Virus record (IMG/VR): IMGVR_UViG_2541047932_000016
Strand: one strand, 5' to 3'
Length of the DNA stretch: 38,453 nt
Source: a virus
Lineage: Duplodnaviria; Heunggongvirae; Uroviricota; Caudoviricetes
This document shows, piece after piece, positions 1-35,355 of the stretch. The notes beneath the pieces were generated by a model that searched no databases, had not been told where the DNA came from, and saw only the letters and a list, made by a program, of their open reading frames with translations. The position numbers and the translations under genes are program-made. Within the stretch, counting starts at the first letter, position 1. Each line of letters opens with the position of its first letter.

Positions 1-1020
1 CTACTTGCTAACCACGAGCGGCAAATCCAGTGTTGGTGTGATTTTTGTTTTACGATCGTAAATCAACACCTGATTTTCTGTTTTATGCCCGCTGAAAATT
101 TGTTTGTCGCGACTGCTGCCTTCGTAATCTGAGATCCCCTTGGCTTTTATGTCGTGAAAATTACACCCGAACGGAACGCCAACTTTTTGCTCGGCTGCGC
201 GTTTAGCCTGATTCCACCAGTTATTCAGCGTTTTAGCTATGACTTTCCCGCCTTTGGTTGTATTGATCACATATTCGCATGTACAGGAAGATACATTTCG
301 GGCTAACTGGATCGCTGTACGTAATCGCGGTGACCATTCCTTGATTTGTTTGGTGCCGGTTTTGTTTTGCTCAATGTAGATCCCTTTATCCATAATATCC
401 TGCCATTTCAACTCAAGCACATCACCGAGTCTTGCCGCACAGAGATAGGAAATCTCCATTGCAATGCGTAACTGTGGAATTGCTTCCGCATATATCGCCG
501 CATACTGTTCATCGGTGATGTAAACAGTGCGGGCTTTAAGAGAGAATTTTCTGACTCCTTTGCATGGGTTATTCTTCACATACCCACGCTCATATCCCCA
601 CCCGTATACTCGACTCAGGCTTGCCAGTTCATGATTTGCCTGGGTCTTGCTCTCAAGCCCTCGTTTATCCATGAAAATTCTTACCTGCTCAGTTTTGACA
701 TTATCAGCAAGCACTTTTCCGAATACCATCAGCAACGCCTTCTGATGTTGTCGATAATCTTTTTGGGTTCGGGGGGCCAGTTCTGTAAATGCAGGGGAGT
801 CCATAAACATGTGCCACAATTTAGCTACGGTCATTATGTTGTGGAGTTTTGCTTTTTCCAGTTCATAATTTTGCCAGACTTTAGCTACGCTGGTTTTCCG
901 CACTCTTCCTAGCCCTATACTTCTTGTACTTCCTTCGGGTTTCCACACGTAACTGTAACCATTCGATCTAACCCGCGGTGGCAGTACATTATCTTTTTTA
1001 TTTTTTCTTGGTCTTCCCAT
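1..1020 (-). CDS. int: Phage integrase, tyrosine recombinase family
   Basis: 339-aa ORF ending at the window edge; translation MGRPRKNKKDNVLPPRVRSNGYSYVWKPEG... looks like a lambdoid prophage integrase; leftmost position next to an xis-like gene is typical. Confidence 0.88.
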   Translation of the reverse strand: MGRPRKNKKDNVLPPRVRSNGYSYVWKPEGSTRSIGLGRVRKTSVAKVWQNYELEKAKLHNIMTVAKLWHMFMDSPAFTELAPRTQKDYRQHQKALLMVFGKVLADNVKTEQVRIFMDKRGLESKTQANHELASLSRVYGWGYERGYVKNNPCKGVRKFSLKARTVYITDEQYAAIYAEAIPQLRIAMEISYLCAARLGDVLELKWQDIMDKGIYIEQNKTGTKQIKEWSPRLRTAIQLARNVSSCTCEYVINTTKGGKVIAKTLNNWWNQAKRAAEQKVGVPFGCNFHDIKAKGISDYEGSSRDKQIFSGHKTENQVLIYDRKTKITPTLDLPLVVSK

Positions 1021-1240
1021 TGTTCAGCGCCTCAAAATCGGGTTCAGCAGAAACCAGTTCAGATGTTTTTGGCATCGTTGTCAGACCGTGTGGAATATCC
1101 CTGCGGAGAACGATGGGTTCGTTTTTAGGGCCGATTACAAATGGGATGCCGTGCAGTCTTAACTGGTGTTGCTGTTTTGTGTATCGCTCGTATTTCGTGA
1201 TCTCTTTAATCTCTGCTGGAGATAGAGTTAATTCGTACAT
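998..1240 (-). CDS. xis: Excisionase, lambda Xis-like
   Basis: 80-aa ORF from an internal ATG at 1238-1240 (MYELTLSPAEIKEITKYERY...NNGKTKKK); begins like lambda Xis (MYLTLQEW...) and ends in a Lys-rich tail; overlaps the int start by 23 nt as in lambda. Confidence 0.55.
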   Translation of the reverse strand: MYELTLSPAEIKEITKYERYTKQQHQLRLHGIPFVIGPKNEPIVLRRDIPHGLTTMPKTSELVSAEPDFEALNNGKTKKK

Positions 1241-1307
1241 GTGGTCACGTGCCTTTACAGCATGACCGCCGCCACTATAGCTGGTGGGCGGCGATATGGG
1301 TTGAACA

Positions 1308-2267
1308 TCAAAAATCAGCCTGACTCGGGAGCAGTTTTTGCCAGATGGCTGAAACGTATTTCGCCTGGTAACGTGCATCGTTCAGAGCGTTATGGCGTTC
1401 ACCTTCGAATGGAATAGTCGTTCTTGCGTCGAAATCCATCACCAGTCCCAGAGCAACCATCGTTCTTACATCGCGATCATTGGTGTAACGCCACGGGCAG
1501 GGGATCCCCTGCCGTTCATATGAACGGCGTAAAATCACGTTGTCGAAAGTTGCACCGTTACCCCAGACCTGAACAAAAAATTCACCGGAGTTTTCGTCGA
1601 TAAATTCCCGTAATTGCAGCAGTGCATCATCTAACGGGATTTCATCGGTAAGAATGGCGGATTGCGCTTCGCGTGACTGTTTCAGCCACCACTTAATGGT
1701 GTCCCGATCAATGACTCCGCCAGCAGTTTCCAGATCGATAGTTTTGCTGAATTCTGGCCCCATCTCTCCGGTTTGCGGATCGAAAAATATTGCACCTATT
1801 GAGATAATCGGGGCATCAGGATTTTTTCCCATGGTTTCAAGGTCGATCATCAGATGAATCCCCGCTCTGCTGGTGGATGTGAGATTATGATGACCGTTCG
1901 CCTTAATTAAGGGATCTGACGCCTCGCCAGTTTCACTATCGCTGGCATGATGCTGATTGCCGCCAGTGTTCTCCTTGTGCTGATGCGCAGTGCCTTCCAT
2001 TTCCTCCGGATCATTTTCCTGAACTTCAGGCTGATTCTCTTCATCGAATATTTCCTGGTATGTTGCGTCACTTATCACCGCACCACAATCAGGGCAGCTA
2101 CCGCCGCCGGTCTGACCGCAGGCGGTGCAGGCTTTTTCCGGCTCCTGTTTCGTTTCTGGCTCGTTTTGTTGCGCATTTGGGCTGTTTTGTTCCGTTTTCT
2201 GGTCGTTCTGTTCCGATTCTTGCTGGTTCTGGTTCACAGAATCGCAGGTTTCAATCCCTTCACCCAT
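1308..2267 (-). CDS. DEDD-type 3'-5' exonuclease (DnaQ-like, exodeoxyribonuclease VIII-like) with N-terminal Cys-rich zinc finger
   Basis: 319 aa; CTACGQTGGGSCPDCG Cys4 motif, then MIDLETMG...VWGNGATFDNVIL...HNALNDARYQAKY matching Exo I/II/III motifs of DEDDh exonucleases. Confidence 0.65.
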   Translation of the reverse strand: MGEGIETCDSVNQNQQESEQNDQKTEQNSPNAQQNEPETKQEPEKACTACGQTGGGSCPDCGAVISDATYQEIFDEENQPEVQENDPEEMEGTAHQHKENTGGNQHHASDSETGEASDPLIKANGHHNLTSTSRAGIHLMIDLETMGKNPDAPIISIGAIFFDPQTGEMGPEFSKTIDLETAGGVIDRDTIKWWLKQSREAQSAILTDEIPLDDALLQLREFIDENSGEFFVQVWGNGATFDNVILRRSYERQGIPCPWRYTNDRDVRTMVALGLVMDFDARTTIPFEGERHNALNDARYQAKYVSAIWQKLLPSQADF

Positions 2268-3757
2268 TTCGGATCATTCGGATCGCTAATCCCTTCAACA
2301 AATTCACCACGTGATGCAGCAAGCAATTTATCGGCGTCAGGCTGGCTGATATTGGCTGCCTGCATAATTTTGTTTACTTCGTCAGCGGTAACTTTTACCG
2401 GCTCCGGTTGTACGGAATCTTCAGCGGTATCCACATTTTGCGGTAAGTCCGTGTATGTTCCGTTTTTGCGGGCAAGATATTCTTCTTTCGTGATTTCAGT
2501 AGCCCCGGCAGCCAGCGCCTTGTCCAGACCAGAAAGTTTGTTTGCGCGACCGTATTTTTCGCCATCCTTGTCGGTGAAGAGGAAGTAGAACGGCCCCTCA
2601 CGCTCTACAGATGGTTCGACTTCCACTTTGCATTCGGTTTTTTCGTTGTCCGGAATTGCCGTTTCCACTGCATCAGTTTCTGGTACTGGCGACGAGAGAG
2701 TATCAGTTGCGCTCTGATTTCTTCCTTCATCTTCAAACACGCCCTTTGTAGTCAGGTATTCAGTAATGTATTTGTTCAGTGCCACAGGGTCTTTGTGAAT
2801 GTCGATCGGACGTTCACGGACAAGGCCAAAAATAGTCTGGCGGCTGTAGCGAAGCGCATCAGGTTGTTTGCGCATTGATGCGGAGATGCGCTTCCAGTCT
2901 TCGCGATCTCTGGCGATAACTTCATTTTTAGCCCAGCGAAGGATGCTGCCGTCAATGTTTCCGGCATCCGCATCACCAGGCCAGAGATAGTAGGCCAGCT
3001 CCCTGTCCAGGGTTTTCCATGTCTGCTTGTATTCGCGATGAATGGCGGCAGTTACAGGAGGGATTTTTTCTGCTGGGTTTTCAGTGTGCTGTCGGTTGGC
3101 TTTGGCGCGGGCAAGATCAACAACAGACGTGTATTTTCCAGTCTCTTTGCGCTCTGCGTCCTGCCGTTTTTTCCAGTTACGTAATTCAGCCTGAATTTCG
3201 GGCCATTTGGCACCCGGATTACATTTGTGTTTAACCCATCCGATAGCGAACAGTTTGCGTTCCGGATACATAGCGTTAATTTCAGGCGTTTTCATCAGTG
3301 CTTCAACGATATGCCCGTCAAAGGTAGCAACGTCTTCCTGCAGTAATTCCTGCGCGTCAATCGCCATATCAACGGTGATGTTTTCACATGTACCGAACTT
3401 AACCAGGACCGCGTTCTGTACTTCAAGGGACAGCTTGTCAAAATTGACGTTCATCGGATCGGATTCTGGTTCGACCGGAATAAAGGAAGCGGATTCCTCA
3501 TCCCAGCGGTTTTCCTGCATATATTCGGTATCCCAGGAGTCGATAGCAGGGCGGGGCATGCCGGGTTTATCTTCGCAGACAAGAAATTTATAAGCGCAGT
3601 CCTGAGCAGCCGGATAATGTTCCAGGAATTGCCAGTGAAATTTTGCGCGGGCGCGACGTTCATCACCGGCTTCAATGGCAGTGGCTACAGCAACTGCGCC
3701 CTCTTCTTTTATTGCCTGTTCGTCCGGAATGGCGGCGCAAATAAAGACTTTACTCAT
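2234..3757 (-). CDS. Hypothetical phage early protein (507 aa), acidic C-terminal half
   Basis: Long ORF with ATG at 3755-3757 and a GAGG-type RBS; co-oriented with the leftward early operon; no family recognised by eye. Confidence 0.6.
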   Translation of the reverse strand: MSKVFICAAIPDEQAIKEEGAVAVATAIEAGDERRARAKFHWQFLEHYPAAQDCAYKFLVCEDKPGMPRPAIDSWDTEYMQENRWDEESASFIPVEPESDPMNVNFDKLSLEVQNAVLVKFGTCENITVDMAIDAQELLQEDVATFDGHIVEALMKTPEINAMYPERKLFAIGWVKHKCNPGAKWPEIQAELRNWKKRQDAERKETGKYTSVVDLARAKANRQHTENPAEKIPPVTAAIHREYKQTWKTLDRELAYYLWPGDADAGNIDGSILRWAKNEVIARDREDWKRISASMRKQPDALRYSRQTIFGLVRERPIDIHKDPVALNKYITEYLTTKGVFEDEGRNQSATDTLSSPVPETDAVETAIPDNEKTECKVEVEPSVEREGPFYFLFTDKDGEKYGRANKLSGLDKALAAGATEITKEEYLARKNGTYTDLPQNVDTAEDSVQPEPVKVTADEVNKIMQAANISQPDADKLLAASRGEFVEGISDPNDPKWVKGLKPAIL

Positions 3758-3850: not shown

Positions 3851-4042
3851 TTAAAGTCCTGCCGGTATTTCGTTATTATTAGTGTGAGTAGTTTTATCTA
3901 CCGGATAACAGTTACCGGGAATTTTTTGTTCTGCTGCTGCAGCCATGCATTCTTTCATTGAACCGTATAAGCCAGTCACCAGCTCAAGAGATTCGCCGGA
4001 AACAAGATAAACTGTCAGAACGAGTGCAAATGTTGTATTCAT
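3851..4042 (-). CDS. Small membrane protein, YdfD-like (Qin prophage lysis protein family)
   Basis: 63 aa with N-terminal hydrophobic segment (MNTTFALVLTVYLVSG...); start overlaps dicB stop (ATGA); same size and position as ydfD downstream of dicB in Qin. Confidence 0.45.
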   Translation of the reverse strand: MNTTFALVLTVYLVSGESLELVTGLYGSMKECMAAAAEQKIPGNCYPVDKTTHTNNNEIPAGL

Positions 4043-4227
4043 TGTTTATATCCTTTTTGCAGCAGGTCCAGACGAGCCAGCATTGAAGGAATGCATACTT
4101 CATTTAACAGGTCCTGCTCGAGTTTTCTCTGCTTAATGGCGTCTTCAATAAATGTTTTGTCTCCAGTGATAACGCCAATTTCGAAACGAAGTTCAGACGT
4201 GCTGGCATTACATGATAACTTTTCCAT
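4039..4227 (-). CDS. dicB: Cell division inhibitor DicB
   Basis: 62-aa product MEKLSCNASTSELRFEIGVITGDKTFIEDAIKQRKLEQDLLNEVCIPSMLARLDLLQKGYKQ aligns along its length with E. coli DicB (...EIGV...EDAI.KRK.E..LLN..CI.SMLARL...KG..Q); start taken at the internal ATG 4225-4227, not the longer ORF. Confidence 0.85.
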   Translation of the reverse strand: MEKLSCNASTSELRFEIGVITGDKTFIEDAIKQRKLEQDLLNEVCIPSMLARLDLLQKGYKQ

Positions 4228-6080: not shown

Positions 6081-6371
6081 TTAACAGCTTTTGTTTGGAT
6101 ACTGCCTTCGTGAGTGAACTACATTTACGATCTCGATGTTAGATGCTGTTACTCGGTAAAGTATTATGTAGTTAGGATGGGTCACTATCTCACGAAGGCC
6201 TAGAGCTCTTTCGCTTGGTGGATACAGGTAAGGGTGTTCAGAAAGTGACAAAACTGATGTTTCAATGCGTATTTTTAGTCTACGTGCAGCGGGAGGGTTT
6301 TCCTTGGCAATATAGGCCACGATCTGACGCAAATCATCACGCGCAGAAGGTAGCCATAAAATGGGCAGCAT
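6081..6371 (-). CDS. parE2: ParE/RelE-family toxin (ParE2-like)
   Basis: 96 aa; MLPILWLPSARDDLRQIVAYIAKENPPAARRLKIRIETSV... is typical of ParE toxins; start overlaps the upstream antitoxin stop by 1 nt. Confidence 0.8.
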   Translation of the reverse strand: MLPILWLPSARDDLRQIVAYIAKENPPAARRLKIRIETSVLSLSEHPYLYPPSERALGLREIVTHPNYIILYRVTASNIEIVNVVHSRRQYPNKSC

Positions 6372-6562
6372 TACTCACTCCTGTTCGTCGAAGCTATTTG
6401 CGCAATAAGGTTTTCCATTTCAGCCATTACTTCGTCATGCGGAATTGCAGGACGGGGGTCTGCGAGGCTTGCTGCCACTTTGGTGCGTAACCATTCGTTA
6501 TAGCTGTTTTCTTGTTCGATTGTTTCAAATTCTGAAATTATCGGGGAAAGGACTGTACTCAT
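6371..6562 (-). CDS. paaA2: PaaA2-like antitoxin
   Basis: 63 aa; SEFETIEQENSYNEWLR.KVAASLADPRPAIPHDEV matches my recollection of E. coli O157 PaaA2; GGAGG RBS; directly upstream of the ParE-like toxin. Confidence 0.72.
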   Translation of the reverse strand: MSTVLSPIISEFETIEQENSYNEWLRTKVAASLADPRPAIPHDEVMAEMENLIAQIASTNRSE

Positions 6563-15237: not shown

Positions 15238-15597
15238 ATGCTCATAGATTTGGTTTTACCTTACCCGCCGACGGTGAACACCTACTGGCGACGCCGTGGC
15301 AGCACATATTTTGTATCAAAAGCCGGGGAGCGTTATCGCCGGGCAGTGGCGCTTATTGTTCGCCAGCAGCGACTGAAATTAAGCCTGTCCGGACGGCTGG
15401 CAATAAAAATTATTGCAGAGCCACCGGATAAGCGTCGTCGTGACCTGGACAATATTCTGAAAGCACCGCTGGATGCGCTGACGCATGCGGGAGTGCTCAT
15501 TGATGACGAGCAGTTTGATGAAATCAATATTGTACGTGGTCAGCCAGTATCTGGTGGACGGCTGGGTGTGAAGATTTACAAAATTGAGAGTGAGTGA
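15238..15597 (+). CDS. rusA: Holliday junction resolvase RusA
   Basis: 119 aa; MLIDLVLPYPPTVNTYWRRRG...DLDNILKAPLDAL... is RusA-like. Confidence 0.88.
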   Translation: MLIDLVLPYPPTVNTYWRRRGSTYFVSKAGERYRRAVALIVRQQRLKLSLSGRLAIKIIAEPPDKRRRDLDNILKAPLDALTHAGVLIDDEQFDEINIVRGQPVSGGRLGVKIYKIESE

Positions 15598-16136
15598 GCG
15601 TAAATATGATATATCCGGAAATTACAGGCAAAAGCGGCGAACATTTACGCCTGAACACGCTGGAAGCAGTCTGGATCCAGGGGAAATTACGGATGTGGGG
15701 GCGGTGGTCGTATATCGGTGGGGGTAAATCCGGAAATATGTTTAACCGGTTACTGGTTTCGAAAAGGCTGACGAAAACAGCAGTTAATGAGGTTTTACGC
15801 AGCATGAAGAAATCCGGGCTGGAAAAACCGGAACTTGAGGCATTTTTTCGGGATATGACCAGAGGGAAGCAGAAGAGCTGGTTGTCACATTGTACAGACA
15901 CAGAGGCGTTGATTATTGATCGCGTTATCAGTGAGGTGCTTGGGGAATATCCCGGGCTAATCAATATTCTCCGGCAAAGGTACGAAGGACGGGGAATGAG
16001 TAAGAGAAAAATGGCAGAATGTTTAAATCGTACTCACCCGGAATGGTGTTTCAGCACATGTGAGAAACGTATTGCAGGTTGGTTAGCCGTGGCTGAACAC
16101 ATGCTTTATGTACCTATGCACGATTCATTTCGATAA
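15594..16136 (+). CDS. Q: Late gene antiterminator Q
   Basis: 180 aa immediately before the late-leader terminator and lysis/moron region; GTG 15594 overlaps rusA stop; alternative ATG 15606. Confidence 0.7.
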   Translation: MSVNMIYPEITGKSGEHLRLNTLEAVWIQGKLRMWGRWSYIGGGKSGNMFNRLLVSKRLTKTAVNEVLRSMKKSGLEKPELEAFFRDMTRGKQKSWLSHCTDTEALIIDRVISEVLGEYPGLINILRQRYEGRGMSKRKMAECLNRTHPEWCFSTCEKRIAGWLAVAEHMLYVPMHDSFR

Positions 16137-17453: not shown

Positions 17454-17529
17454 GGCCCTTTAGCTCAGTGGTGAGAGCGAGCGACTCATAATCGCCAGGT
17501 CGCTGGTTCAAATCCAGCAAGGGCCACCA
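17454..17529 (+). tRNA. tRNA with CAT anticodon (Ile2/Met type; ileX/ileZ-like)
   Basis: Hand-folded 76-nt cloverleaf: acceptor GGCCCTT/AAGGGCC, anticodon loop CTCATAA, T-loop TTCAAAT, 3' CCA. Confidence 0.8.
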
Positions 17530-17536
17530 TCACATA

Positions 17537-17613
17537 CCGCCATTAGCTCATCAGGAAAGAGCGCCAGCTTTCGAAGCTGGTTGCGCGGAGTTCGGGTCCC
17601 CGAAGGCGGTCCA
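17537..17613 (+). tRNA. tRNA-Arg-like (anticodon TCG by hand folding), possibly degenerate
   Basis: 77 nt: acceptor CCGCCAT/AAGGCGG (one A-A mismatch), anticodon loop TTTCGAA, T-stem with one mismatch, T-loop TTCGGGT (non-canonical G at position 58), CCA. Confidence 0.5.
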
Positions 17614-17626
17614 TTATCTGTATCCT

Positions 17627-17703
17627 GCGTTGTTAGCTCAGCCGGACAGAGCAATTGCCTTCTAAGCAATCGGTCACTGGTTCGAATCCAGTACAACGCG
17701 CCA
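17627..17703 (+). tRNA. tRNA-Arg (anticodon TCT)
   Basis: 77 nt: acceptor GCGTTGT/ACAACGC, anticodon stem ATTGC/GCAAT, loop CTTCTAA, T-loop TTCGAAT, discriminator G, CCA. Confidence 0.8.
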
Positions 17704-18192: not shown

Positions 18193-20043
18193 ATGGCATT
18201 TAAACACTATGATGTTGTCAGGGCGGCGTCGCCGTCAGACCTTGCGGAAAAGCTGACACACAAACTGAAAGAGGGCTGGCAGCCATACGGCGGACCGGTT
18301 GCCATTACGCCGTACACACTGATGCAGGCGGTGGCTATTGAAGGAGATCCACAGGTCGGCCCTTCATCTAAGCCGGACTGGTTCTACGTGGTTGTGCTTG
18401 CCGGACAGTCCAACGGCATGGCCTACGGTGAAGGGCTTCCGTTACCGGATTCTTACGATGCTCCGGATCCGCGCATTAAACAGCTGGCGCGCCGCAGCAC
18501 GGTAACTCCGGGTGGAGAGAGTTGTACGTATAACGACATCATTCCGGCTGACCACTGCCTGCATGATGTGCAGGATATGAGTACGCTGAATCATCCGAAG
18601 GCAGACCTGAGCAAAGGGCAGTACGGCTGTGTCGGCCAGGGCTTACATATTGCCAAAAAACTGCTTCCGTATATCCCGAATAACGCGGGGATCCTGCTGG
18701 TACCATGCTGTCGTGGTGGTTCTGCATTCACCCAGGGCGCTGAGGGGACATTCAGTGCGGACACGGGGGCCAGCCAGGATTCGGCACGCTGGGGTGTGGG
18801 TAAACCGTTATATCAGGACCTGATTGCGCGCACTAAAGCTGCATTACAGAAGAACCCGAAAAATGTGTTGCTGGCGGTGTGCTGGATGCAGGGAGAGTTT
18901 GACATGAGCGCCGCCACCCACGCACAGCAACCTGCGCTGTTTACAGCCATGCTGACACAGTTTCGTGCTGACCTCTCCGTGTTTAACGCGCAGTGCCATG
19001 GTGGCAGTGCTGCAGATGTGCCGTGGATTTGTGGTGACACGACGTATTACTGGAAAAATACCTACGGCACCCAGTACAACACCATTTACGGGGCGTACAA
19101 AAACAGGGAGAGTGAGGGCGTTTATTTTGTGCCCTTCATGACAGACGGTAACGGCGTCAATACCGCCACTAACGCGCCGGCAGAAGATCCGGATATTCCG
19201 GCATCAGGATATTACGGTGCGGCATCGAGAACGAATGGAAACCAGGTATCATCAAACCGCCCGACACATTTCAGTTCATGGGCGCGCAGGAGCATTATTC
19301 CGGATCGTCTGGCAACCGCTATTCTGAACGCAGCCGGGCGCACCTCCGCCTTCATCAGTGGTAAGGCACCGGAAATCAAACCCTCGCCCGGCGGCAACAC
19401 GCCATCGGGTCCGTCTGCAGATACGTCCGTTCGCACAATCTCCCTGCTGCCGGCAGCCGGAGAGGCTGCTGCGCAGGGCTGGAGCATTAAGGATGGCGGA
19501 ATTCAGTTGTCAGATGGTGTATTTAAGATCACCAAGCAGAGCAATAAAACCTGGTCCCTGACGCATCCGGTGGATGACGCAATTACCCTGCTGACACAGG
19601 GCGGCAGACTGAACTGTAAGTTCCGCCTGTCAGGCGCACTGACCAACAATCAGTTCGGGCTGGGGATTTATCTGTATACGGATGCTCCCGTTCCTGATGG
19701 TGTGGCGATGACGGGTACCGGTAATCCGTTCCTGATGTCGTACTTCACTCAGACCACTGACGGCAGAGTGAATCTGATGCATCACAGGAAAGCCGGAAAC
19801 ACGAAGCTGGGAGAGTTCGGCGATTACGGTAACGACTGGCAGACGCTGGAGCTGGTGTTCACCGCCGGCAGTGCCACGGTTACTCCGAAACTGAATGGAG
19901 TGGCTGGCCCGGCATTCCAGGTTATAAAAGACAGTCTGACACTGGGACTGAATGCGCTGACGCTGACGGATGTTACAAAAAATGCAGCGTATGGCGTTGA
20001 GATAGAAAGTCTGGTGCTGGAGATAAATGCACCGGCAGCATAA
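18193..20043 (+). CDS. nanS-p: NanS-p-like sialate O-acetylesterase (DUF1737 N-domain plus SGNH/DUF303 esterase)
   Basis: 616 aa; N-terminus MAFKHYDVVRAASPSDLAEKLTHKLKEGWQPYGGP...; VVLAGQSNGMAYGEG esterase motif; GGGAGG RBS; same position as nanS-p in Stx-type phages. Confidence 0.8.
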   Translation: MAFKHYDVVRAASPSDLAEKLTHKLKEGWQPYGGPVAITPYTLMQAVAIEGDPQVGPSSKPDWFYVVVLAGQSNGMAYGEGLPLPDSYDAPDPRIKQLARRSTVTPGGESCTYNDIIPADHCLHDVQDMSTLNHPKADLSKGQYGCVGQGLHIAKKLLPYIPNNAGILLVPCCRGGSAFTQGAEGTFSADTGASQDSARWGVGKPLYQDLIARTKAALQKNPKNVLLAVCWMQGEFDMSAATHAQQPALFTAMLTQFRADLSVFNAQCHGGSAADVPWICGDTTYYWKNTYGTQYNTIYGAYKNRESEGVYFVPFMTDGNGVNTATNAPAEDPDIPASGYYGAASRTNGNQVSSNRPTHFSSWARRSIIPDRLATAILNAAGRTSAFISGKAPEIKPSPGGNTPSGPSADTSVRTISLLPAAGEAAAQGWSIKDGGIQLSDGVFKITKQSNKTWSLTHPVDDAITLLTQGGRLNCKFRLSGALTNNQFGLGIYLYTDAPVPDGVAMTGTGNPFLMSYFTQTTDGRVNLMHHRKAGNTKLGEFGDYGNDWQTLELVFTAGSATVTPKLNGVAGPAFQVIKDSLTLGLNALTLTDVTKNAAYGVEIESLVLEINAPAA

Positions 20044-32040: not shown

Positions 32041-32424
32041 ATGGCAACAAAAGAAGAAAATCAGAAACGTCTTCGTCAACTGGCTGGCCTGCTGGGGCGC
32101 GAGGCGGATATGTCGGGGAGTGCTGCGGATATTGCGCAACGTGTGTCTGAGTGGGAAGAGGAGCTTGCTGCTTCCCGGGAGGGCATTATGCCTGGTGATG
32201 AGAGCGGGCCTGAGCAAAATCACACAGACGATGGTGAGCAGTTGCACAACACTGATGCTACGGATGATGTTAAAGCGGTCCGTGTGCGGAAATGCCTGCA
32301 TGTGATGGGGTATTGCCCGGAGACAGGCCGTCCCGTTGAACTGACGTACCGGGGCATGCGTGTTCTGGTGCCATCACCACTGGCGACAGCCATGATACAG
32401 CACGGAACGGCTGAGCATGCGTGA
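32041..32424 (+). CDS. FI: DNA packaging protein gpFI
   Basis: 127 aa from ATG 32041 (AGGGGG RBS; upstream in-frame region is occupied by the terminator hairpin); position as lambda FI. Confidence 0.7.
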   Translation: MATKEENQKRLRQLAGLLGREADMSGSAADIAQRVSEWEEELAASREGIMPGDESGPEQNHTDDGEQLHNTDATDDVKAVRVRKCLHVMGYCPETGRPVELTYRGMRVLVPSPLATAMIQHGTAEHA

Positions 32425-32769
32425 TTTTCAGAATGCCTTTGATGCTGCCCTCGCCGGGGTGGACAGTACGATTGTTGAAGTGATGGGCTCTGTGCACAGT
32501 TCACCTCGGGGGCACAGTGTGGCGGAGAAGTTCAGGGGGTTTTTGACGATCCGGAGTCGCTGGGATTTGCCGGTAGCGGGGTCCGTATTGAAGGAAGCAG
32601 CCCGTCATTATTTGTGCGGACGGATACGGTTCGTGCTGTGCGGCGTGGTGACACGCTGACCATTAATGGTGAGACGTTCTGGGTGGATCGTGTTTCTCCG
32701 GATGACGGGGGCAGCTGTTATCTCTGGCTCAACCGTGGGCAACCACCCGCTGTTAACCGGCGACGATAA
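32417..32769 (+). pseudogene. FII: Head-tail connector gpFII homolog interrupted by a 1-nt frameshift
   Basis: First 25 codons (MRDFQNAFDAALAGVDSTIVEVMGS) match lambda FII in one frame; the rest (...FTSGAQCGGEVQGVFDDPESLGFAGSGVRIEGSSPSLFVRTD...SPDDGGSCYLWLNRGQPPAVNRRR*) matches in the -1 frame; junction near 32486-32492. Confidence 0.6.
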
Positions 32770-32784
32770 ACGCAGGGTGAAATT

Positions 32785-33318
32785 ATGGCGATAAAAGGGC
32801 TTGAGCAGGCGATTGATAATCTGAGCCGGGTTCGTAAAAACGCCATTCCGGCGGCTTCTGCAATGACCATTAACCGCGTGGCCACAACGGCGATTAATCA
32901 GTCTTCATCACAGGTTGCCCGGGAAACCAGGGTGAGACGGAAACTGGTTAAGGAACGGTCCAGACTGAAACGGGCCACGGTCAGAAATCCGAATGCCAGA
33001 ATTATCGTTAACCGCGGTGATCTCCCGGTGATTAAGCTGGGGATCAGGATGCCGGGGCGTCGTCCGGACAGCATACTCAAAGCCGGTCAGCATCGTTATC
33101 AGCGGGCATTTATTCAGCGATTAAAAAATGGTCGCTGGCATGTCATGCAGCGTGTGGTCGGGAAAAACCGTTACCCCATTGATGTGGTGAAAATCCCGAT
33201 GGCGGCCCCACTGAAACAGGCGTTTGATGAGAATGTTGACCGTATCCGGCGTGAACGTCTGCCCGGAGAACTGGCATACGCGCTGAAACAACAACTGAGG
33301 ATTGCGATAAAACGATGA
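32785..33318 (+). CDS. Z: Tail completion protein gpZ
   Basis: 177 aa; MAIKGLEQAIDNLSR...FIQRLKNGRWHVMQRVVGKNRYPIDVVKIPMA... aligns with lambda Z. Confidence 0.88.
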   Translation: MAIKGLEQAIDNLSRVRKNAIPAASAMTINRVATTAINQSSSQVARETRVRRKLVKERSRLKRATVRNPNARIIVNRGDLPVIKLGIRMPGRRPDSILKAGQHRYQRAFIQRLKNGRWHVMQRVVGKNRYPIDVVKIPMAAPLKQAFDENVDRIRRERLPGELAYALKQQLRIAIKR

Positions 33319-34483: not shown

Positions 34484-34915
34484 ATGTTTCTGAAAACAGA
34501 ACAATTTGAATATAACGGTGTGTCCGTCACGCTTTCCGAATTGTCTGCGCTGCAGCGTATCGAGCATCTTGCCCTCCTGAAACGGCGTGCAGAACAGGCA
34601 GAATCCAGCGGCAACCTGCAGGTAAGCGTGGAAGATCTCGTCAGAACCGGCGCGTTTCTGGTGGCGATGTCCCTGTGGCATAACCATCCACAGAAAACGC
34701 CATCACCGTCAATGAATGAGGCCGTGATGAAGATAGAGCAGGAAGTGCTCACCACCTGGCCTGCCGATGCCATTGCCCGGGCGGAAGACGTGGTGTTGTG
34801 CCTGTCCGGGATGATCGAAGCTGTTCGTCCGGATACTGATATTACTGAAGTGGCGAAAAATAACGCGCTGACTGATGATGATTTTTCTGCGGGAAAGTCT
34901 TCGACGGCGAGCTGA
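34484..34915 (+). CDS. G: Tail assembly chaperone gpG
   Basis: 143 aa from ATG 34484 (GGAGG RBS); MFLKTEQFEYNGVSVTLSELSALQRIEHLALLKRRAEQAES... aligns with lambda G. Confidence 0.88.
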   Translation: MFLKTEQFEYNGVSVTLSELSALQRIEHLALLKRRAEQAESSGNLQVSVEDLVRTGAFLVAMSLWHNHPQKTPSPSMNEAVMKIEQEVLTTWPADAIARAEDVVLCLSGMIEAVRPDTDITEVAKNNALTDDDFSAGKSSTAS

Positions 34916-35355
34916 ATTTTGCCCTCAGACTGGCGCGTGAGATGGGGAGGCCTGACTGGCGCGCCATGCTTGCCGGGATGACATCCACCGAATATGCCGA
35001 CTGGCGACATTTTTACCGTACGCATTATTTTCTCGATACCCAACTGGATATGCATTTTTCCGGGCTGACGTACGCCGTACTCAGCCTGTTTTTTTGCGAT
35101 CCGGATATGCATCCCTCTGATTTCAGTCTGCTTGCCCCCCGGCGTGAGGAAGCGCAGACGGAGATGCCGGATGAGGAAAAAATGCTGATGCAGAAAGCGG
35201 CAGGACTTGCCGGAGGCGTCCGGTTTGGTGGGGACGGAGGGCGTGAGATTTTATCGTCTGCGGATGTGGCGGATGTCAGCGAGGATGATGTCGCATTAAT
35301 GATGGCTTCAGCGGGGATTTCCGGAGGTGTGAGATATGTCCCAGCCGGTTGGTGA
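34484..35355 (+). CDS. GT: Tail assembly chaperone gpGT produced by -1 programmed ribosomal frameshift
   Basis: Slippery heptamer G GGA AAG at 34891-34897 in the G frame; -1 frame continues into the T ORF (...MGRPDWRAMLAGMTSTEYADWRHFY...) to stop at 35355. Confidence 0.8.

What the first reader, a model, noticed from the sequence alone, without database searches (positions are those of the whole stretch)
32417..32769. Frameshift in the gpFII head-tail connector gene
The N-terminal 25 residues match lambda FII in one frame and the remaining ~92 residues match in the -1 frame, with the junction around 32486-32492 (apparent loss of one T in ...GGCTCT[T]GTGCACAG...). The downstream frame has no plausible start codon. 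Either FII is inactivated, which would make this otherwise intact-looking prophage defective for head-tail joining, or it is a sequencing/assembly error, or an unusual recoding event. All other structural genes look intact.
Basis: seen in the sequence. Interest (0 to 1): 0.45.

Follow-up and report, generated by a model that had tools for sequence, protein, structure and literature searches.

The report
One-base deletion inactivates prophage FII gene
A lambda-like prophage of E. coli has lost one G from a run of four in its head-tail joining gene (FII), a real but ordinary knockout mutation of the kind that slowly disables resident prophages.

Summary
The frameshift is real. The FII homologue starts at 32417 and keeps the FII frame for 24 codons. 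The other 93 codons (32488-32769) lie in the -1 frame. Adding the G back gives a 117-aa protein that aligns without gaps to lambda gpFII and is identical to intact alleles in other E. coli prophages.

The window matches E. coli UMEA 3292-1 (GCA_000461135.1). The same deletion is in two other assemblies that differ from the window by SNPs, so a random read or assembly error is unlikely. It is absent from 5,426 complete E. coli genomes, from deposited phages and from IMG/VR, where the intact version is common.

There is no slippery heptamer, no stimulatory RNA structure and no conservation of the shifted arrangement, so programmed recoding is unsupported. The 80-aa product keeps only the N-terminal helix that docks on gpW. 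It lacks the beta-sandwich and the hairpin that binds gpU.

This is ordinary prophage decay.

The parts
32417..32659 (+). Frame-0 ORF as encoded: 80 aa, made of FII residues 1-24 followed by 56 out-of-frame residues and a premature TGA
   Evidence: No Pfam hit. Deposited as ERB38895.1 and CTW93366.1.
32485..32487 (+). GGG run, the site of the single-G deletion. All eight aligned relatives have GGGG here.
   Evidence: Alignment A1. The 50-mer spanning it has no match in complete E. coli genomes or deposited phages, while the intact 51-mer hits 362 genomes.
32488..32769 (+). Remainder of FII (codons 25-117 plus TAA) in the -1 frame, with no usable start codon
   Evidence: It is 100% identical at protein level to residues 24-117 of intact UTAK-1 FII.
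32041..32424 (+). FI (DNA-packaging protein, 127 aa). Its stop overlaps the FII start (ATGCGTGA).
   Evidence: 100% identical to the UTAK-1 FI.
32785..33318 (+). Z (tail completion protein, 177 aa). It now begins 125 nt after the premature FII stop, instead of 15 nt after the normal stop.
1308..3757 (-). Second frameshifted gene of the same prophage. The 816-aa exonuclease of relatives is split into 507-aa and 319-aa ORFs by C4 to C3 at 2256-2258 (+ strand).
   Evidence: The same split is present in GCA_001285965.1.

Best explanation
This is a genuine, recent loss-of-function mutation. One G was lost from a four-G run at codons 24/25 of the lambda-type FII gene, most simply by replication slippage. 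The gene lies in a lambdoid prophage integrated next to yccA in E. coli UMEA 3292-1 and close relatives.

Translation from the normal ATG makes an 80-aa polypeptide. It keeps only the N-terminal segment, which in lambda forms the helix ring that seats on the gpW adaptor. It lacks the beta-sandwich, the beta-hairpin that inserts into the gpU tail terminator, and the C-terminal loop.

Inferred consequence: on induction, DNA-filled heads and tails would form but could not join. The prophage could not make infectious particles from its own genes. It could do so only if another lambdoid prophage supplies FII in trans, or if recombination repairs the gene.

Shown here: the deletion, its presence in three assemblies, its absence from all intact relatives, and the identity of the rest of the gene to functional alleles. 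Inferred: slippage as the origin, and the head-tail joining phenotype.
For: - **Cause:** Alignment A1 shows a single gap, GGGG to GGG. The tblastn of intact UTAK-1 FII splits into two frames exactly there, with residues 24-117 100% identical.
- **Identity of the gene:** The repaired ORF is 117 aa and a PF05354 member (67.4 bits). It is colinear with lambda gpFII 1K0H. It is identical to the allele found in 8 IMG/VR prophage contigs.
- **Seen more than once:** The exact 80-aa product is encoded in GCA_000461135.1 (identical to the window), in GCA_001285965.1 (2 SNPs in 4,331 nt, no gaps) and in metagenome contig QZMB01007012.1 (6 SNPs in 1,627 nt, no gaps).
- **Shared second frameshift:** GCA_001285965.1 also carries the exonuclease frameshift and the same insertion site.
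- **Rarity:** The deleted allele has 0 hits in 5,426 complete E. coli genomes, deposited phages, IMG/VR and GTDB species representatives. The intact allele is in 362 genomes (536 places) and at least 120 IMG/VR contigs.
- **Functional relatives:** Phages propagated on K-12 or E. coli C (PhiR12_1, PhiR5_1) have the intact 354-nt gene.
- **Structure:** The lambda cryo-EM paper gives the gpFII domains as helix 4-24, sandwich 25-41 and 63-107, hairpin 46-62 binding gpU, in a hexameric ring (PMC10721106).
- **Role of FII:** W is required for FII binding, and FII connects head to tail (PMC3224144).
Against: - No raw reads were available, so the base call itself was not re-examined.
- The three assemblies could come from one clone. 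In that case they confirm the base call but amount to a single mutational event.
- The phenotype is inferred from lambda genetics and was not tested in this phage.
- The rest of the UMEA 3292-1 genome could not be searched for a second, intact FII. E. coli genomes carry up to 5 FII homologues, and defective O157 prophages are known to be complemented by co-resident ones (PMC2669165).
Confidence: 0.88

Rival explanations
1. Sequencing or assembly artefact: the true sequence has four Gs and FII is intact.
For: The change is a one-base contraction of a homopolymer, the classic form of read error. The window holds a second such contraction, C4 to C3 at 2256. Three of 114 FII copies in IMG/VR relatives show other G-run frameshifts, and one of those (L038) has several indels, which looks like read error.
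Against: The same GGG is called in three assemblies with different accession series and different SNPs. Both contractions are shared by UMEA 3292-1 and GCA_001285965.1. A run of 3 versus 4 is short for homopolymer miscalling. The sequencing platforms and the origin of the assemblies were not checked. No other gene in the window is split relative to intact relatives.
Confidence: 0.05
2. Programmed -1 recoding: ribosomes shift back one base to make full-length FII from the shifted gene, as for lambda G-T.
For: The needed shift is -1. A slip of the P-site tRNA-Gly from GGC (32486-88) back to GGG (32485-87) would regenerate exactly the wild-type sequence M-G-L-C-A (read from the sequence). The same prophage uses a true -1 site, GGGAAAG at 34891-97.
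Against: There is no X XXY YYZ heptamer in the zero frame anywhere in the overlap. The only heptamer, GGGTTTT at 32537, is in the wrong frame. The RNA at 32480-32580 folds worse than 195 of 200 shuffles, z = +1.97. Every relative examined encodes FII in one frame, and the shifted form is confined to three near-identical sequences. There has been no selection for a recoding signal.
Confidence: 0.02
3. The mutation is real but has no phenotype in its host. An intact FII from a co-resident lambdoid prophage assembles onto these heads, so the prophage can still be packaged and transferred.
For: FII alleles of E. coli lambdoid prophages are very similar: 27 distinct intact proteins among 111 copies, mostly differing at a few sites. 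Genomes carry up to 5 copies. In O157 Sakai, prophages with morphogenesis defects were still packaged and transferred, which the authors attributed to complementation (PMC2669165).
Against: Whether UMEA 3292-1 has another FII copy was not testable here, since only this window and exact-protein look-ups were available. Particles made this way would still carry the defective gene and could not propagate lytically alone.
Confidence: 0.3

Closest known systems
Bacteriophage lambda gpFII (head-tail joining or 'stopper' protein; PDB 1K0H, 8K37; Pfam PF05354)
   Same: The repaired ORF is 117 aa and aligns without gaps over the full length, E = 5.7e-52. It occupies the same position between FI and Z in a lambda-order head-tail module Nu1-A-W-B-C-D-E-FI-FII-Z-U-V-G-T-H-M-L.
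   Different: As encoded, the reading frame breaks after Gly24. The product has no Pfam match and lacks all gpU-contacting parts.
Lambda FII-defective mutants (Casjens 1974; Casjens, Hohn and Kaiser 1972, as cited in PMC3224144)
   Same: Loss of FII in a lambda-type assembly pathway. The expected outcome is filled heads and free tails that do not join.
   Different: Those are laboratory mutants of a free phage. This is a natural frameshift carried in a resident prophage, and its phenotype was not tested.
Defective lambdoid prophages of E. coli (the O157 Sakai Sp prophage pool, PMC2669165)
   Same: A lambdoid prophage of the same mosaic type: yccA-side integrase, DicB, tRNA trio, SASA esterase, lambda-like late genes. 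It has small lesions in individual genes, one of them a morphogenesis gene.
   Different: It is a different strain and a different lesion. Only two frameshifts were detected in the 38 kb available, so decay appears to be at an early stage.
Lambda G / G-T programmed -1 frameshift
   Same: Both need a -1 shift inside a late structural gene. The true G-T site is present in this window (GGGAAAG, 34891-34897).
   Different: FII has no slippery heptamer in frame, no conserved shifted arrangement and no structured RNA downstream.

Membership tests
gpFII / Phage_attach (PF05354) head-tail joining protein | Sequence match to the family profile above the curated cut-off | tested here: met
   The repaired 117-aa ORF scores 67.4 bits against a cut-off of 26, covering residues 7-105. 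The C-terminal 51 aa alone score 31.9 bits. The 80-aa ORF as encoded has no hit.
gpFII / Phage_attach (PF05354) head-tail joining protein | Full-length colinearity with lambda gpFII | tested here: met
   Residues 1-117 align to 1-117 of 1K0H without gaps, E = 5.7e-52.
gpFII / Phage_attach (PF05354) head-tail joining protein | Position between FI and Z in a lambda-type late operon | tested here: met
   Packaging_FI lies upstream and Minor_tail_Z downstream, confirmed by tblastn of the relatives' proteins.
gpFII / Phage_attach (PF05354) head-tail joining protein | Uninterrupted reading frame of about 117 codons, that is, a functional gene | tested here: not met
   The frame breaks at 32485-32487 and a premature stop follows at 32657. 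It is a pseudogene of the family, not a functional member.
Programmed -1 ribosomal frameshift site | Slippery heptamer X XXY YYZ in the zero frame within the overlap | tested here: not met
   There is none in frame 0 between 32440 and 32659. The only heptamer (32537) is in the third frame.
Programmed -1 ribosomal frameshift site | Stable RNA structure shortly downstream | tested here: not met
   The minimum free energy is -27.5 kcal/mol against a shuffle mean of -33.2, z = +1.97. Pseudoknots were not modelled.
Programmed -1 ribosomal frameshift site | The two-frame arrangement is conserved among relatives | tested here: not met
   All 8 aligned relatives and 111 of 114 IMG/VR copies are in a single frame. 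The shifted 22-mer is absent from four collections.
Sequencing or assembly artefact | Confined to one assembly and not reproduced independently | tested here: not met
   Present in three assemblies that differ by SNPs. Raw reads could not be examined.

The most novel reading that the evidence does not exclude
The lesion could be leaky by design of its position. A -1 slip of the P-site tRNA-Gly from GGC (32486-88) onto the overlapping GGG (32485-87) would regenerate exactly wild-type FII. The prophage would then make a trickle of functional stopper protein, and few infectious particles, rather than none. Alternatively, the retained 24-residue gpW-docking helix could act as a decoy that caps the heads of co-induced or superinfecting lambdoid phages.
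Probability: 0.03. Interest if true: 0.4.

Novelty: already known. Interest (0 to 1): 0.08.

Why it matters
It matters little beyond annotation. The gene should be labelled as a frameshifted FII pseudogene. In GenBank its 80-aa product is named a 'phage head-tail joining protein' and a 'Tail attachment protein (Minor capsid protein FII)'. The prophage of UMEA 3292-1 next to yccA should be scored as probably defective for autonomous particle formation. It is a clean example of early prophage decay: two homopolymer frameshifts in an otherwise well-preserved 38 kb. It also shows that 'intact' calls from prophage predictors can hide single-base knockouts in essential neck genes.

Tried and rejected
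Rejected. Alignment A1 shows the gap in the G run.
- **Internal restart.** Rejected. The first ATG, GTG or TTG in the FII frame is GTG 32614, inside the sandwich domain, and I saw no purine-rich ribosome-binding site upstream of it.
- **Canonical -1 frameshift signal and stimulatory RNA.** None found.
- **Searches for the deleted allele.** It was absent from IMG/VR, GTDB species representatives, deposited phages and complete E. coli genomes. The metagenome scan returned only the contig already known. A positive control with the intact 51-mer showed that the short-query test works.
- **Ordering the two frameshifts.** The tool counted a third contig carrying the 319-aa exonuclease fragment but did not list it, so I could not use it.
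- **A second FII copy in UMEA 3292-1.** I could not look for one, because no tool gives access to a named assembly.

Full report
**Observation**

The window encodes a lambda-type FII gene that is broken by a frameshift.
- From ATG 32417, frame 0 reads MRDFQNAFDAALAGVDSTIVEVMG, then 56 unrelated residues, and stops at TGA 32657-32659 (80 aa).
- The frame one base back reads LCAQFTSGAQCGGEVQGVFDDPESLGFAGSGVRIEGSSPSLFVRTDTVRAVRRGDTLTINGETFWVDRVSPDDGGSCYLWLNRGQPPAVNRRR and ends at TAA 32767-32769.
- That frame is closed by TGA at 32476. It has no ATG, GTG or TTG before GTG 32614.

**Cause**

Megablast of 32300-32900 found 1,877 E. coli chromosome or plasmid records and 18 phage records. The best match was 99.3% identical (strain UTAK-1). 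The top-ranked hits (H19-H53) were one base longer than the query across the whole span. Further down the list some were the same length, because they lack a base in the FII-Z spacer.

Alignment A1 covers the window and eight relatives in which FII is annotated as an intact 354-nt 'head-tail joining protein'. It shows one gap inside the gene. Every relative has GTGATGGGGCTCTG where the window has GTGATGGGCTCTG. The lesion is the loss of one G from a four-G run, leaving GGG at 32485-32487. It is not the loss of a T. Codon 24 stays Gly, so 24 residues rather than 25 are preserved.

Re-inserting the G gives a 117-aa protein with these properties:
- It scores 67.4 bits on Pfam PF05354 against a cut-off of 26.
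- It aligns 1-117 to 1-117 without gaps to lambda gpFII (1K0H and the cryo-EM entries), E = 5.7e-52.
- It is identical to the allele carried by 8 IMG/VR prophage contigs.
- Residues 24-117 are 100% identical to the intact UTAK-1 FII protein.

Nothing else in the gene has degenerated. The lesion looks recent.

**Real mutation or error**

An exact-sequence look-up of the 80-aa product returned three contigs:
- KE702261.1 of GCA_000461135.1 is identical to the window over 16,037 nt, so the window corresponds to that scaffold. It is E. coli UMEA 3292-1, protein ERB38895.1.
- CYDF01000070.1 of GCA_001285965.1 (protein CTW93366.1) has 2 mismatches in 4,331 nt, both in gene V, and no gaps.
- QZMB01007012.1 of GCA_003604815.1 has 6 mismatches in 1,627 nt, all in gene E, and no gaps. 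The same contig was the only hit in the metagenome collection.

Three assemblies with different accession series and different SNPs all call GGG.

The same prophage has a second one-base contraction. C4 has become C3 at 2256-2258. This splits an exonuclease gene that is 816 aa in relatives into ORFs of 507 and 319 aa. GCA_001285965.1 carries this too. Its contig CYDF01000004.1 is 100% identical to window 1-2648, with the same integrase next to the yccA-type gene.

Two shared frameshifts at the same chromosomal site indicate an inherited, defective prophage rather than miscalls. Raw reads could not be inspected, so a small residual doubt remains.

**Distribution**

- A 50-mer centred on the deletion has no match in 5,426 complete E. 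coli genomes or in 50,697 phage records.
- The 22-mer has no match in IMG/VR or in the GTDB species representatives.
- As a control, the intact 51-mer matches 362 genomes at 536 places. The intact 23-mer matches at least 120 IMG/VR contigs.
- Of 114 full-length FII copies in those contigs, 111 are intact. Three carry other frameshifts at other G runs.
- Phages propagated on K-12 or E. coli C (PhiR12_1, PhiR5_1) have the intact gene.

The shifted form is rare and confined to near-identical sequences.

**Recoding**

A -1 shift would be needed to restore the frame. No X XXY YYZ heptamer lies in the zero frame anywhere between 32440 and the premature stop. The only heptamer (GGGTTTT, 32537) is in the third frame. 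The RNA from 32480 to 32580 folds less well than 195 of 200 shuffles, z = +1.97. No relative conserves the two-frame layout.

By contrast, the genuine lambda-type G/G-T slippery site GGGAAAG is present at 34891-34897, just before the stop of G.

One point from the sequence is worth recording. A spontaneous slip of tRNA-Gly from GGC back onto GGG would recreate exactly wild-type FII. Nothing suggests this happens above background.

**Consequence (inferred)**

In the lambda virion, gpFII forms a hexameric ring (PMC10721106). Its parts are:
- residues 4-24, a helix ring that receives the gpW adaptor;
- residues 25-41 and 63-107, the beta-sandwich;
- residues 46-62, a hairpin that inserts into the gpU terminator ring;
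- residues 108-117, a loop that contacts gpU.

W is required for FII binding, and FII connects head to tail (PMC3224144).

The break falls exactly at the helix/sandwich boundary. The 80-aa product retains at most the gpW-docking segment and nothing that can bind a tail. The expected phenotype is that of lambda FII mutants: filled heads and free tails that do not join.

Late transcription in lambdoid phages is Q-antiterminated. From general knowledge, I therefore do not expect strong transcriptional polarity on Z to L.

Complementation by another lambdoid prophage is plausible in principle. E. coli genomes hold up to five FII homologues. Defective O157 prophages are packaged with help from co-resident ones (PMC2669165). 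It could not be tested for this strain.

**State of the prophage**

The window runs from the stop of an intact 339-aa integrase to one base before the scaffold end, inside gene L.
- All late genes present have the expected lengths and single-frame matches: Nu1, A, W, B, C, D, E, FI, Z, U, V, G, T, H and M.
- The regulatory, replication and lysis genes look ordinary for an EHEC-type lambdoid prophage.
- Only FII and the exonuclease are split.
- Genes K, I, J and the fibre genes are on other contigs and cannot be assessed.

**Verdict**

This is a real, rare, recent single-base deletion that turns FII into a pseudogene in a resident lambdoid prophage already carrying another frameshift. It is ordinary prophage decay. 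It is neither an artefact nor recoding, and it is not novel.

Noticed in passing
window 1308-3757 (- strand); lesion at 2256-2258: A second frameshift in the same prophage. The YdfE/Rv2179c-like exonuclease gene, 816 aa in relatives, is split into 507-aa and 319-aa ORFs by C4 to C3. The same split is in GCA_001285965.1, and the allele is absent from complete E. coli genomes.
   Followed up: yes
window 34891-34897: The lambda-type G/G-T programmed -1 slippery heptamer GGGAAAG lies 18 nt before the stop of gene G (34915), with T (34942-35355) downstream. The classical recoding site is retained.
   Followed up: partly
window 38453 (end) and window 1: The window starts exactly at the stop codon of the integrase gene and ends one base before the end of scaffold KE702261.1, inside gene L. 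The tail-tip and fibre genes are therefore missing from view.
   Followed up: yes
L038, L109, L097 (IMG/VR relatives): Three of 114 full-length FII copies carry other frameshifts. In two (L038, L109) the frame breaks at the conserved G5 run of codons 32-33; in L097 it breaks near codon 55. L038 has several indels that sum to -3. These could be independent decay or homopolymer read errors.
   Followed up: partly
L002 (phage 204576, CP025907.1), alignment A1 columns 348-349: This deposited 'complete' phage record has a 2-nt deletion near the 3' end of FII (CAACCA--CGC). The record has no annotation and may itself be defective or error-prone.
   Followed up: no
window 17454-17703 and 18193-20043: A tRNA trio, Met-type CAT (annotated tRNA-Ile in a relative), Arg-TCG and Arg-TCT, lies downstream of the Q-like gene (15594-16136). 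A 616-aa SASA-family esterase follows. This is the arrangement typical of Stx-phage-like prophages, but there is no room for stx genes.
   Followed up: partly
window 6081-6562 (- strand) and 4042-4227 (- strand): A ParE/RelE-type toxin with a PaaA2/RelB-type antitoxin, and a DicB cell-division inhibitor, sit in the early-left region of the prophage.
   Followed up: no
L012 1001-2019 (E. coli 2014C-3061): In this relative the integrase is the frameshifted gene (G6 to G5), while the window's integrase is intact. Different copies of this prophage type lose different genes through homopolymer indels.
   Followed up: partly
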